Below are positions 9,518 to 39,591 of a stretch of DNA of 64,000 bases, in pieces. How positions within the stretch are numbered: the first letter of the stretch is position 1; every line of letters begins with the position of its first letter. The position numbers and the translations under genes were made by a program. This DNA comes from Octopus vulgaris. Its lineage: Eukaryota. The stretch lies in contig OX597819.1 of the NCBI GenBank assembly GCA_951406725.2, positions 32,178,001 through 32,242,000 on the forward strand. The letters run 5' to 3'. The notes below the pieces were generated by a model, which was given only the letters and a program-made list of their open reading frames with translations, was not told the DNA's origin and ran no database searches.

Positions 9518-9563
9518 TCTAGGGACACCGTGTTTCAGGATCATTGTCCTTCATCGGCCTAGA
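9518..9563 (-). ncRNA. Minimal type-I hammerhead ribozyme (U4C core) in a probable PLE terminal-repeat relic (~9350-9700)
   Basis: Minus strand TCTAGG-CCGATGA-AGGA-caatga-TCCT-GAAA-CACGGTG-TC-CCTAGA: perfect 6-bp stem I, 4-bp stem II, near-palindromic stem III ACACGGUGU, GUC site. Confidence 0.82.
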
Positions 9564-9771
9564 GTAGCAGACACCGGTCGGCTGGTGATGTTTGTCTGGA
9601 CTTCGTATCTGTATATATGTAAACTCAGTGAAGTCTATTCACTGATTATCAAAATAAGAAATATTGAATTTCCAAATCTCTCGTAGAGTGCACTATATAA
9701 TTCACATCATACCAGGGCCAGATTAAGACCCATAAAGGCCCTAAGTGGTTAAAAGATTTGGGCTTCCCCAT

Positions 9772-10127
9772 ATACTCTTTACTCTTTTACTTGTTTCAGT
9801 CATTTGACTGCGGCCATGCTGGAGCACTGCCTTTAGTCGAGCAAATCGACCCCGGGACTTATTCTTTGTAAGCCCAGTACTTATTCTATCGGTCTCTTTT
9901 GCCGAACCGCCAAGTGACGGGGACGCAAACACACTAGCATCGGTTGTCAAGCAATGCTAGGGGGACAAACACAGACACACAAACATATACACACACTTAT
10001 ATATATATATATATACATATATACGACAGGCTTCTTTCAGTTTCCGTCTACCAAATCCACTCACAAGGCATTGGTCGGCCCGGGGCTATAGCAGAAGACA
10101 CTTGCCCAAGATGCCACGCAGTGGGAC
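9772..10127 (-). mobile_element. SINE family A, 5'-truncated
   Basis: Matches the family consensus. Confidence 0.9.
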
Positions 10128-10437
10128 ATATATGTAATTCAAAATATAAACAATAATAAACAATAAATTTTTTTCTCGATCATATAAACCACTTGAAGGT
10201 TATTTTAACAAGTTTAAAATGATTTCTTTTGTGCCTTAAACCATTTACAATAGCTGTGGTGCTTCTATTTTGTTGATACTCCCAGTACGTGCTTATTTGG
10301 CTTAATGGTTAATCAAGCGCTACATCCTACAATCTTAACATCTGAAAGAGGGATAACACAATTATGGACATCTCTAAAAACACAGCGTTGTCCTGATTCG
10401 GAGGTCCTTGATTGTTGAGCTGTTCCAGTTAAGATCT

Positions 10438-10818
10438 TGGAAGCACCCCGTCGGTTACGACGACGAGGGTCCCGGTTGATCCGATCAACGGAACAGCCTG
10501 CTCATGAAATTAACGTGTAAGTGGCTGAGCACTCCACAGACACGTGTACCCTTAACGTAGTTCTCGGGGATATTCAGCGTAACACAGAGAGTGACAAGGC
10601 CGGCCCTTTGAAATACAGGTACAACAGAAACAGGACGTAAGAGTGAGAGAAAGTTTTGGTGAAAGAGTACAGCAGGGTTCACCACCATCCCTGCCGGAGC
10701 GTCGTGGAGCTTTAGGTGTTTTCGCTCAATAAACACTCACAACGCCCGGTCTGGGAATCGAAACCGCGATCCTACGACCGCGAGTCCGCTGCCCTAACCA
10801 CTGGGCCATTGCGCCTCC
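10438..10818 (-). mobile_element. SINE family C, tail type i
   Basis: tRNA-like head ggaggcgcaatggcccagtggttagggcagcggactcgcggtcg...gtttcgattccc; TSD agttaagatct. Confidence 0.9.
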
Positions 10819-11104
10819 AGTTAAGATCTAGGCTGAATGACAATAACAACAGCAACAACGCAATAACACCAACGATATCAACAACGACAACGACGATGAC
10901 ATCTAAATTGTAATGTTGGTTTCAAAGTTTGGCATAAGGTGAGCACTTACGGAGGAGGAGGTAAGTCAATTACATCAACCCCAGTACGCAACTGGTAGTT
11001 ATTCTATCGACTCCGAAAGTATGAAAGGCGAAGTCGATCTTTAACTGATGGTAAGTCTGCTACGTATTAGATGGCTTTTTAATTCTAACAGACACAGGTA
11101 GTGT

Positions 11105-11410
11105 TTTTGTTTGTTTCTTCTCGAGCCACGCCTGGCTCATAAGGGCCGGTTTCCCGGTTTCCTTGGCGTATAGGTTCCCCACCTGGACGGGACGCCGGTC
11201 CGTCGCAGGTGAGCTGCAAGATGGAGGAGGAAAGAGTGAGAGAAAGCTGTGGCGAAAAAGTCAGCAGAAGTTCACCATTACCTTCTGCCGGAGCCGCGTG
11301 GAGCTTAGGTATTTCGCTCATAAACACACACATCACCCGGTCTGAGATTTGAACCCGCAATCCCTTGACCGCGAGTGCGCTGCTCTAACCACTAGGCCAT
11401 GTGTCTCCAC
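11105..11410 (-). mobile_element. SINE family C, tail type iii
   Basis: TSD acacaggtagtgt at 11092-11104 and 11411-11423. Confidence 0.92.
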
Positions 11411-36402: not shown

Positions 36403-36429
36403 GTATCCTTCATATATATATATATATAT

Positions 36430-37064
36430 ACACAAATTAGTAAATAAATGGCACAACTAAGTACCGATATTTACTGGAAATAGCGAACGTAAAAATACGA
36501 CGCTAATGTGTAGCTTCACCGCGTATGTATTAGCAAAAATGCGTGTGTGCAACAAACTAGAGCAAAAAAACGTCTTACCTCCAGGGAGAACATCTGAAAG
36601 ATGAAACACCAGGAAAAGGATAATGTGTGACCTGCAGGTTTCAGGTTTTACAAGATATGTCTCTCACCCATATTTTGTTTTACCTTCATCAGCCAAGCAT
36701 ATACCAAGACGAAATCTACGATGTTACCACATTAATACTATCACACTCGACTGAAATGCGGAACGCTAACAGCACGAGAAACGGTGAAGAAGTTTCAAAA
36801 TATCAGTAATGCAATACAAAGTATCGCCTTCCAGTAAAAAGTAGCCCGTGAGGGAAAAATACACAAATTAGTAAATAAATGGCACAACTAAGTACCGATA
36901 TTTACTGGAAATAGCGAGCGTAAAAATACGACGCTAATGTGTAGCTTCACCGCGTATGTATTAGCAAAAATGCGTGTGTGCAACAAACTAGAGCAAAAAA
37001 ACGTCTTACCTCCAGGGAGAACATCTGAAAGATGAAACACCCGGAAAAGGATAATGTGGGACCT
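36430..37064 (-). mobile_element. Non-coding ~1.5-copy tandem of a 431-bp hammerhead-containing unit (PLE pseudo-LTR / retrozyme-like)
   Basis: 36431-36633 recurs almost identically at 36862-37064 (period 431); TA-rich flanks on both sides; contains the hammerhead at 36623-36700. Confidence 0.8.
36623..36700 (-). ncRNA. Type-I hammerhead ribozyme, canonical CUGAUGA core, extended stem II
   Basis: Minus strand atgcttgg-CTGATGA-aggt-aaa-acaa-a-atatg-ggtgagaga-catat-c-ttgt-aaa-acct-GAAA-CCTGCAGG-TC. Stem III is the palindrome ACCUGCAGGU with a GUC site. The stem I 3' strand is ccacat in the second repeat copy and acacat in this one. Confidence 0.8.
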
Positions 37065-37077
37065 TTATATATACTTT

Positions 37078-37481
37078 CATTCTTGTTCCAGTCATTTGGC
37101 TGCGGCCACGCTGGAGCACTGCCTTTAGTCGAACAAATCGACCACAACACTTATTCTTTTTAAGCCGAGTACCTATTTTATCGTTCTCTTTTGCCGAATC
37201 GCTAAGTTACGGTGCCGTAAACTCACCAGCATCGGTTGTCAAGTGATGGTGAGAGGACATACACACACACACACATACACACACACACACACACACACAC
37301 ACACACACACATACACTGTACATATACGACGGGCTTCTTTCAGTTTCCCTCTACCAAATCCACTCACAAGGCTTTGATCGGTCCGAGGCTTTAGGAGAAG
37401 ACACTTGGCCAAGGTGCCACGCAGTAGAACTGAACCTGAAACCATGTGGATCGGGAAGCATGCTTCTTACCACACAGCCAT
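37078..37481 (-). mobile_element. SINE family A
   Basis: Matches the family consensus. Confidence 0.85.
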
Positions 37482-39405
37482 GTGTGTGTGTGTGTGTGTG
37501 TGTGTGTGTGTGCTTCTAGTGCGTAAAATAGCATCAGAGAAGTTTCTCGTTTCCAGAACCGGAAGATCATCACCTGTACAGCAGACCTCATCGATCTTTC
37601 AGTCATTGAAGTATCGCACGTAACTGTCTGGCTAGCCGGTGCTGCATTGGGTTGTCCTATTCAATATCTTCTCCAATGTTGCAGGCCAAATTTTGCGCTA
37701 TCTCAGACGAGCCAATCTCTACTGCCGCACAAAACCACCTCACACACACACATATACTGTAAGTCAAATCACACACACACGTACATGCACACAAGCACTG
37801 AGACACATGTATAGATTCGTTACTGCAACTCCTAAGCGAATACATAAAACCTGATTTATGTGTCATGCTCATTTATATCTCTTTAGAATTCATGTATACT
37901 GTTGTGTATACAACATTGATATAGACTAATAAACTAAACATTACTCGTTCATTTGTCATTTATACACACATACATATATAACATACATATATACAAACAA
38001 ACAAACATACATACATACATACATACATACATACATACATATATGTGGTGTGATATGACGCGATATTTTCGGACTGTAAATCGCAATTATGAAACTGTCT
38101 GACATTTCTACATATTCATAAATATATATTATATTCATGTAATGTAAATGAAATCTGAAGAAACACGAGATGGCTCGACTATGTTAAGAACTGGTCTATA
38201 AGCCATAAGTGAGATTATTAACAAGTTTGCTAAGTTTAATTAATGTGAGGCTTGAAGAATCTAACGTTCCGGTTCCTAGCTCTTCGTATGAAAGCGGAGG
38301 TAAGAGGAAGAAATGTAATGTAATGTGGCTTCGGTTGTAAGCTGGGTAAATGGTTCTTCTCTCTCGCCAATAGAAGTTACCAAATGGATTGAAATCTTTT
38401 CTATTACTAGCAGTATAACTAGATTAAGTTAGGATTATTAAGCTAATCAAGCGCTTTGTTTCAAACCAAATTAAGTAACACCGACGTGAATTTGAGCGAA
38501 ATCCGTTGCAATTGGTAAATGTTTGGTTGAAAATGGGTTGCAGACAATTTGACTGGGAAATCCCATAAGGAATCGGTTTATCGAACTTTCCACTCATCGA
38601 TTGTTTCTTTTTCTTTCTTTTTTATGGAGAACTTAAGGCATCAAAAAATCCCATGAGTCCTAAGTAATGCCGGCATCGAGTTTGAACAAAATACGTCAAA
38701 ACTGGTAAGTTATGGTTGAAAATGGGGTGTAGCAATTTTAGTGGGAAATCCTATAAGGAATCAGCTTATCGATTTTTCATCCTGATTGAATGGAAAACCC
38801 CATAAGGAATCAGTTCATTGATTTTTCACCTCAAATAGGACTTCACAGAACACAACATTGCTGATTCAAAAATATATATATATTTATACTTTAAAGTTAG
38901 TTTTCACACCCAACACAATTCTGCAGAATCAGTGTCGCGACGGGAACGCATGGGTTGGGAGTTTTAATCGGAAGAGGTGATCAGGTTTCACATGCCGGCC
39001 TTTTCGAAACCACCACCTCATCATCTAACCCCACTTGGCCCATGGGTTGGGAACCCTTCCGGCACAGAAAATAGAACGCCCAAAAGGGCTTCCGATCTTC
39101 TGTGTCAGAAGAGGTTATGTTCGCATCACAACTAAGCCTTAACCTAAGCCTACGCTAACCTAGCGAAAGGGGGCTCGAGAGCCTCTAAAGGGCAGCAATT
39201 AATCCCGATCTAGTCCTAACCCATCCTAGAGGTATTATCAGTCAAAGCTGTATCGAAGATATGCATTGGAGAAGGTTGTATTGAAGGTTTGCACGATTTT
39301 ATATATATATATGTGTATATATATATACATACACAATATCAATGTCACATTTCTACTATAATATATATATATATATATATATATATATATATATATATAT
39401 ATATA

Positions 39406-39591
39406 GACCTCGTGTGTACTGTTGGCGATTTTTTTTCCTCTGTCTTCCCTTCTCCTATGTTTCCGACGAAGAGCTCCGCTCGAAACGTTAAACCCTCCTT
39501 CTTCCCTTCTTTCCTGAGCGTCCAATAATACTATATTTGTTCCACGTCCTCGCGTTGTTGTGTTTTTTTGTGTCTTCTTGTTTGGATTACC
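39406..39591 (+). mobile_element. Short (TA)n-embedded PLE 3'-end relic; related copies at ~50343-50450 (-) and ~56038-56290 (-)
   Basis: Flanked by (TA)n. Shares ttcctgagcgtccaataa...ccacgtcctcgcgttgttgtg...tgtttggatta with the reverse copy at 50.3 kb. The 56 kb copy keeps gtttccga...tccgctcgaaacgtc with part of the core deleted. Confidence 0.65.
39459..39493 (+). ncRNA. Minimal hammerhead-like motif (U4C core, extra A after A9)
   Basis: GTTT-CCGACGA-A-GAGC-tcc-GCTC-GAAA-CG-TT-AAAC: 4-bp stems I and II, palindromic ACGU stem III. Confidence 0.6.

What the first reader, a model, noticed from the sequence alone, without database searches (positions are those of the whole stretch)
9518..39493. 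Three sequence-unrelated hammerheads share a non-canonical CCGANGA (U4C) core
Seen: the motifs at 9518-9563 (CCGAUGA), 34067-34111 (CCGAAGA) and 39459-39493 (CCGACGA), plus the remnant at ~56130-56158, all have C at core position 4, although their stems and flanks differ. The stems pair properly, and none has the textbook A9-G10.1:C11.1 junction (A:U, U.U, or an extra A). Inference: U4C is probably a maintained variant of PLE hammerheads in this lineage rather than decay, since T>C creating a CpG is not the favoured mutation. Descriptor searches that require CUGANGA would miss these.
Basis: partly seen in the sequence, partly recalled or inferred. Interest (0 to 1): 0.75.

Follow-up and report, generated by a model that had tools for sequence, protein, structure and literature searches.

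The report
Retroelement hammerheads with C4 core
Three unrelated jumping-gene families in this animal genome carry a hammerhead RNA motif (likely self-cutting) in which a normally fixed U is replaced by C; the change is inherited by hundreds to thousands of copies and likely slows cutting without stopping the elements from spreading, but most hammerhead families sampled from the genome keep the usual U.

Summary
The three motifs are real type I hammerheads with C at core position 4 (3 in the window, 0.015 per shuffled window). They belong to three unrelated repeat families: a 365-bp tandem retrozyme, a very young autonomous Neptune-type Penelope-like element, and a ~200-bp non-autonomous repeat; the 56.1-kb remnant is a relative of the third. 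C4 is the family state, not decay: 221 of 227, 1126 of 1142, and 77 of the first 100 of 6509 exact copies. But it is not lineage-wide: an older sister subfamily of family 2 is 84% U4, family-3 C4 copies form one clade nested among U4 copies, and only 7 of 39 hammerheads in 1.2 Mb of sampled genome have C4. The odd stem II junctions are published features, and U4C is a known slow but viable viroid variant; earlier scan notes report it in phages. Best reading: a tolerated, probably slower ribozyme that arose repeatedly in active master elements. Cleavage is untested. I found no paper on U4C in animal retroelements, but the key paper (Lunse 2017) could not be read.

The parts
9518..9563 (-). Family 1 type I hammerhead, C4 at 9556, predicted cut between 9524 and 9523; stem I extends past an internal loop to about 9513-9570
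9357..9688 (-). Slightly less than one monomer of a 365-bp tandem, non-coding retrozyme-type repeat (family 1)
   Evidence: shared boundaries with 29 other loci; 365-bp tandem arrays elsewhere
34067..34111 (-). Family 2 minimal type I hammerhead, C4 at 34105, predicted cut between 34072 and 34071; predicted to fold as a dimer
33929..36404 (-). 5'-truncated copy of a young 4271-bp Penelope-like element (family 2), 3' end in (TA)n
   Evidence: 99.7% identical to full-length tandem units
34606..36456 (-). Open frame of 616 aa: C-terminal part of the RT - CX4CxxC linker - GIY-YIG protein (775-aa frame in full copies)
39459..39493 (+). Family 3 minimal type I hammerhead, C4 at 39464, extra A before stem II, predicted cut between 39489 and 39490
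39397..39590 (+). ~200-bp non-autonomous repeat (family 3) inserted in (TA)n
56040..56223 (-). Diverged family-3 relative; hammerhead has C4 (56150) but an 8-nt deletion removes N7-G8-A9 and the 5' arm of stem II

Best explanation
The three motifs are hammerheads of three unrelated retroelement families whose copies mostly carry C instead of U at core position 4, a change that likely arose separately in each family's master element and likely slows self-cleavage without blocking retrotransposition. Shown: the motifs, their families, C4 as majority state, U4 sister subfamilies in families 2 and 3, continued amplification after the change (family 2 C4 copies are 0.12% from their majority and sit in 99.98% identical tandems with intact frames). 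Inferred from known PLE and retrozyme biology: tandem transcripts bring two motifs together so that the palindromic stem III pairs between them, the RNA is cut after position 17, and the PLE RT-endonuclease copies mostly uncut or circularised RNA into (TA)n sites. Inferred: C4 weakens the U-turn but leaves the catalytic G8 and G12, so cutting is slower; since cutting rate does not limit copying, C4 is tolerated and rides along with whichever master is amplifying.
For: Family counts: family 1 C 221, T 5, A 1; family 2 C 1126, T 16 of 1142; family 3 C 77, T 21, A 2 in the first 100 of 6509. Older family-2 subfamily: 84 T, 16 C in the first 100 of 410; T4 copies 4.1% diverged against 0.12% for C4 copies. 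Family-3 tree built without the position-4 column: all 27 C4 rows plus 1 long-branch U4 row in one clade (91/88), nested in a U4 grade (99/98); 2 changes against 15.9 for shuffled labels. In 1.2 Mb of sample the only core variants at family level (6 multi-locus clusters) are U4C, A6U and the U3-A8 swap; none at G5, A9, G12, A13, A14. U4C lowers in vitro activity but keeps a viroid infectious (PMC3088659). Catalytic mutants of a Poseidon PLE hammerhead do not affect insertion in vitro and uncut RNA is the main substrate (PMC11167929). Family-2 dimer folds into the dimeric hammerhead.
Against: No cleavage evidence at all. Selection on the C4 motifs was not demonstrated: shared variants inside versus outside the ribozyme gave p 0.33 and 1.0 (family 1) and 0.69 and 0.73 (family 3). 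A mutational scan reports low activity for all single changes in the CUGA turn except the C3:G8 swap (PMC9901934), so C4 may be near dead in these minimal motifs. No excess of copy ends at the cut site: 1 genome-wide match in family 1, 0 of 29 family-3 alignments. For families 1 and 3 the lowest-energy dimer is not the hammerhead. The C4 lineage outgrew its U4 predecessor in both testable families, which neutrality explains only by hitchhiking.
Confidence: 0.6

Rival explanations
1. C4 switches the ribozyme off; the motif persists as an inert passenger or as an RNA structure for the RT, and these elements need no cleavage.
For: Low activity of CUGA-turn mutants; cleavage dispensable in vitro; a large sister family carries the more damaging A6U in 16 of 18 sampled copies; no constraint signal; in family 1, C4 strengthens a competing pairing of C3-C4-G5 with stem III (monomer -16.3 against -10.9 kcal/mol for the hammerhead fold; a natural U4 copy's best dimer is the hammerhead, the C4 copy's is not; the two copies also differ at one other base).
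Against: U4C is viable in a viroid; family-level changes avoid G12, A13, A14, G5, A9; in contigs of four runs none of the 25 listed substitution sites of family 1 falls within 9515-9585 (suggestive only); the diverged C4 sub-branch (L042 type) keeps the rest of the core.
Confidence: 0.2
2. C4 is favoured: a slower ribozyme lets more full-length tandem RNA survive to be reverse-transcribed, so C4 masters replace U4 masters.
For: In 2 of 2 families with a U4 sister the C4 branch is derived and larger; C4 appears in 5 of 24 hammerhead clusters seen (3 are the window's own, 2 are single copies, each beside a similar U4 cluster); uncut RNA is the main insertion substrate.
Against: Two replacements only; nine other diagnostic columns change along the same family-3 succession; T>C is among the commonest new changes; 19 of 24 clusters have only U4.
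Confidence: 0.15
3. The U-to-C change was written by A-to-I editing of the antisense strand in inverted-repeat transcripts and then fixed by reverse transcription.
For: Contigs of a run guessed to be RNA show clustered A>G (28 places) and T>C (10) on the family-2 3' region; inverted copy pairs are common.
Against: No genomic copy among 43 C4 alignments shows clustered A>G or T>C (at most 2 each); the run is not on record as RNA; ordinary transition errors suffice.
Confidence: 0.04
4. The three copies are individual mutants of U4 families, or chance look-alikes.
For: None; three C4 out of three is unlikely at the sampled rate ((7/39)^3 = 0.006), but that concerns which families landed here.
Against: Family counts; shuffles.
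Confidence: 0.01

Closest known systems
Minimal type I hammerheads of Penelope-like elements (Cervera and de la Pena 2014, PMC4209133)
   Same: Short stem I, extra nucleotide after A9, tiny palindromic stem III, place in the pseudo-LTR; the supplement shows U4 motifs with the same junction types as families 2 (Hydra) and 3 (Acropora).
   Different: Their descriptor fixes U4; no C4 core string was found in the readable supplement file (file 1 not searched); the only core change named in the text read is U3-A8.
Non-LTR retrozymes of animals (Cervera and de la Pena 2020, PMC7229834; bioRxiv 10.64898/2026.07.22.740005)
   Same: Family 1: non-coding 365-bp tandem repeat with a canonical-size type I hammerhead (6-bp stem I extended past an internal loop, 4-bp stem II).
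   Different: C4 core and A10.1:U11.1; circular RNA not shown here.
U4C viroid hammerhead variant (as cited in Perreault et al. 2011, PMC3088659)
   Same: Same base change; reported slower in vitro yet sufficient in vivo.
   Different: A rare viroid variant there; here the majority state of three genomic families with hundreds to thousands of copies, in minimal dimer-type motifs.
Neptune/Nematis-type EN+ PLEs (Craig et al. 2021, PMC8557442)
   Same: RT, CX2-5CxxC linker, C-terminal GIY-YIG, tandem units, (TA)n targets, 3' hammerhead.
   Different: C4 core; clade not placed by an RT tree here.

Membership tests
Type I hammerhead ribozyme | Three helices around the core, stem I open | tested here: met
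Type I hammerhead ribozyme | C3, G5, A6, G8, A9, G12, A13, A14, A15.1:U16.1, H17 | tested here: met
   all three motifs; the 56.1-kb remnant fails
Type I hammerhead ribozyme | U4 | tested here: not met
   C4 in all three; a known natural exception
Type I hammerhead ribozyme | G10.1:C11.1 closing stem II | tested here: inconclusive
   present after an extra A in family 3; A:U in family 1; U.U in family 2; both departures are published
Type I hammerhead ribozyme | Match to an Rfam hammerhead model | tested here: not met
   no hammerhead hit at E<=10 on the three regions
Type I hammerhead ribozyme | Site-specific self-cleavage | not testable with these tools
   only assembled contigs were available
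EN+ Penelope-like element, Neptune/Nematis type (family 2) | RT followed by C-terminal GIY-YIG | tested here: met
   Pfam RVT_1 (27 bits, under its 29.6 cut-off) and GIY-YIG (25.5 bits, over cut-off)
EN+ Penelope-like element, Neptune/Nematis type (family 2) | CX2-5CxxC linker before the endonuclease | tested here: met
   CX4CxxC in the translation; definition
EN+ Penelope-like element, Neptune/Nematis type (family 2) | Tandem units with pseudo-LTR hammerhead, (TA)n targets | tested here: met
   4271-bp tandems, one hammerhead per unit; TA flanks
EN+ Penelope-like element, Neptune/Nematis type (family 2) | RT phylogeny placing it in a named clade | not tested
Non-LTR retrozyme (family 1) | Short non-coding tandem monomer with a canonical type I hammerhead | tested here: met
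   365-bp arrays
Non-LTR retrozyme (family 1) | Expressed as circular RNA | not testable with these tools
   no raw RNA reads
Penelope-derived non-autonomous repeat (family 3) | Autonomous partner with RT | tested here: inconclusive
   all 52 matches inspected are ~200-bp inserts without shared upstream sequence; PLE origin is inferred from motif type and TA targets

The most novel reading that the evidence does not exclude
Penelope-like elements and retrozymes are selected to detune their own ribozyme: U4C (and A6U) in the U-turn arise again and again, slow the cut, spare the full-length tandem RNA that the RT needs, and the detuned master replaces its U4 ancestor. A sizeable class of animal hammerheads, invisible to CUGANGA descriptors and to Rfam, would then record selection on ribozyme speed, and the near-identical U4/C4 sister pairs found here are a ready-made test of what PLE hammerheads are for.
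Probability: 0.15. Interest if true: 0.7.

Novelty: new variant of a known kind. Interest (0 to 1): 0.4.

Why it matters
The role of hammerheads in Penelope-like elements is open. This genome offers natural sister pairs that differ at one core base, one of them in an element that looks active now, so ribozyme speed can be set against transposition success. Practically, about a fifth of sampled hammerhead copies here (7 of 39) and some of the largest families are missed by CUGANGA descriptors and by Rfam. If C4 is merely tolerated, the result is a useful annotation note rather than new biology.

Tried and rejected
Whole-window Rfam scan: the 150 listed of 384 matches were microsatellite-driven, nearly all miRNA models; no hammerhead among them. 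One search used a pattern one letter short and is ignored. Constraint test: a first count (47 shared columns outside, 0 inside) was discarded because the ribozyme limits were mis-set and indel and palindrome artefacts inflated it; the corrected test is not significant. Link between C4 and a non-textbook junction: 5 of 16 against 0 of 8 clusters, Fisher p 0.13; 0 of 51 textbook-junction motifs have C4, but these are few families: not established. Copy ends at the cut site: no excess; the family-2 list is biased by how loci were chosen and says nothing. Expression: no RNA holder listed; only contigs. Family-2 tree was poorly resolved and is not used. NCBIfam gave only a weak RT match. No U4 sister subfamily was seen for family 1: its few T4 copies fall on different backgrounds. 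Papers not obtained: Lunse et al. 2017, supplement of PMC7229834, file 1 of the PMC4209133 supplement; these may already show C4 motifs.
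Full report
Observation. A type I descriptor with position 4 free finds these three and nothing else in the window; 200 block-wise dinucleotide shuffles gave 3 hits in all. The surrounding elements share no detectable similarity. The remnant near 56140 aligns with the family of the 39459 motif and lacks 8 nt of core and stem II. Rfam does not see any of the three.

The genome. The window lies in a 2.8-Gb animal assembly rich in TA microsatellites; that it is octopus-like is my inference from size and repeat make-up and is also the wording of earlier scan notes.

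Family 1 (9518-9563). The window holds just under one monomer (9357-9688) of a repeat that elsewhere forms 365-bp tandem and inverted arrays. The hammerhead has canonical size, with stem I extended past an internal loop. This fits the non-LTR retrozymes described in PMC7229834 (passages read). Exact 31-letter matches: C4 221, T4 5, A4 1. No U4 sister subfamily was seen.

Family 2 (34067-34111). The motif is in the 3' region of a 5'-truncated element with an RT - CX4CxxC - GIY-YIG frame. Full units are 4271 bp, carry two overlapping frames (about 430 and 775 aa) and one hammerhead each, and form tandems 99.98% identical: a very young Neptune/Nematis-type Penelope-like element by the features in PMC8557442 (passages). 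Exact matches: 1142, of which 16 are T4. Seven of 8 T4 loci examined share linked older letters; a pattern for that older type gives 410 matches, 84 T4 and 16 C4 among the first 100. T4 alignments are 4.1% from the majority, C4 alignments 0.12% (11 and 43 alignments; most C4 loci were picked for identity over 200 bp, so the figure is biased low). So U4 is the older state and C4 marks the latest burst. Contigs from four coded runs carry the C4 form, and one also carries the older U4 form.

Family 3 (39459-39493). A ~200-bp insert, usually in (TA)n, with no coding part in 52 matches inspected. Exact matches 6509; first 100: C 77, T 21, A 2, with T linked to a downstream letter (13 of 18 against 8 of 79, p 2e-7). 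A 48-row tree built without the position-4 column puts all 27 C4 rows, plus one long-branch U4 row, in one clade (91/88) inside a grade of U4 rows (enclosing node 99/98), rooted on related families; 2 changes against 15.9 on shuffled labels. C4 arose once here and its branch became the largest.

Genome-wide context. In 120 evenly spaced 10-kb stretches (1.2 Mb) the strict descriptor found 39 motifs: 21 C3-U4, 10 U3-U4 with A8, 7 C3-C4, 1 other; shuffles gave under 1 per 1.2 Mb. Over all 265 loci then held, 5 of 24 clusters contain C4, three of them the window's own and two single copies with similar U4 clusters. None of 51 textbook-junction motifs with a CAATA loop has C4. Allowing one change at any core position, the only variants at family level are U4C, A6U and the U3-A8 swap (6 multi-locus clusters). 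C4 is thus recurrent but a minority; three in one window is partly luck.

What is known. PMC4209133 (first two of four parts of the text, part 1 of supplement file 2 and term searches) describes minimal PLE hammerheads with an extra nucleotide after A9, palindromic stem III, dimer cleavage at low rate, and uses a 'cuganga' descriptor; PMC8557442 does too. PMC3088659 (passages and section 8) states that U4C lowers activity considerably in vitro yet allows viroid infectivity, and that stem II can open with U.U. PMC13481778 (passages) already searches with Y at position 4. PMC9901934 (passages) finds low activity for CUGA-turn mutants. PMC11167929 (passages) shows that hammerhead-dead PLE RNA inserts normally in vitro, that cleavage needs the protein, and that no RNA-seq reads start at the cut. 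PMC6765202, PMC13725137, PMC10085705 and bioRxiv 10.64898/2026.07.22.740005 were seen as passages only and gave nothing on position 4. Nine paper searches turned up no report of U4C in animal retroelements, but Lunse et al. 2017 on PLE hammerhead variants was not held. Earlier scan notes report U4C in many phage hammerheads (not checked by me).

Mechanism. Shown: structure, family membership, derived origin in families 2 and 3, amplification after the change. Inferred: dimer cleavage on tandem transcripts (the family-2 dimer folds that way), slower cutting with C4 because U4 contacts the A6-N7 phosphate, and tolerance because cutting is not rate-limiting. Against this: no cleavage data, no significant constraint on the C4 motifs, no excess of copy ends at the cut, a competing fold favoured by C4 in family 1, and a big sister family with A6U (16 of 18 copies), all of which leave room for the motifs being inert. 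In favour of retained function, family-level changes spare the catalytic guanines and none of 25 substitution sites listed for family 1 falls in 9515-9585, both weak. That C4 branches outgrew U4 ones twice keeps an adaptive reading alive at low odds.

Verdict. A real, heritable core variant of known ribozyme kinds in known kinds of retroelement; new in this setting as far as I could search, modest in surprise, useful as a natural test pair. Interest 0.4.

Noticed in passing
L134, L160, L166, L196, L205, L207 and others: An abundant sister repeat of family 3 has U at core position 6 (A6U) in 16 of 18 copies in 1.2 Mb; a second family-level change in the U-turn.
   Followed up: partly
L114, L118, L122, L123, L153, L154, L159: Two multi-locus hammerhead families with the compensatory U3-A8 core.
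   Followed up: no
window 33928-40799: Block nearly identical (99.6% over the first 6 kb) to G000:C1 from 85247952, where it starts beside an N gap and a long ATT array, exactly at the element's 3' end; recent duplication, transduction or assembly artefact.
   Followed up: partly
window 33945-34400, run X9: Contigs of a run guessed to be RNA show clustered A>G and T>C changes on the family-2 3' region, like ADAR hyper-editing.
   Followed up: partly
L225 3356-4717 and 1122-3446 (minus strand): Full family-2 element has an upstream ~430-aa frame overlapping the RT frame by about 90 nt in an A-rich stretch; a frameshift is possible, untested.
   Followed up: no
L235-L264: Many older family-2 copies start about 80 nt before the predicted cut, forming a ~217-bp non-autonomous derivative, often as inverted pairs.
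   Followed up: no
window 36428-36633 and 36859-37064: 206-bp direct duplication (98.5%) just upstream of the truncated family-2 element.
   Followed up: no
L097 2280-4540: Seven-copy tandem and inverted array (period about 359 bp) of a U4 canonical retrozyme hammerhead.
   Followed up: no
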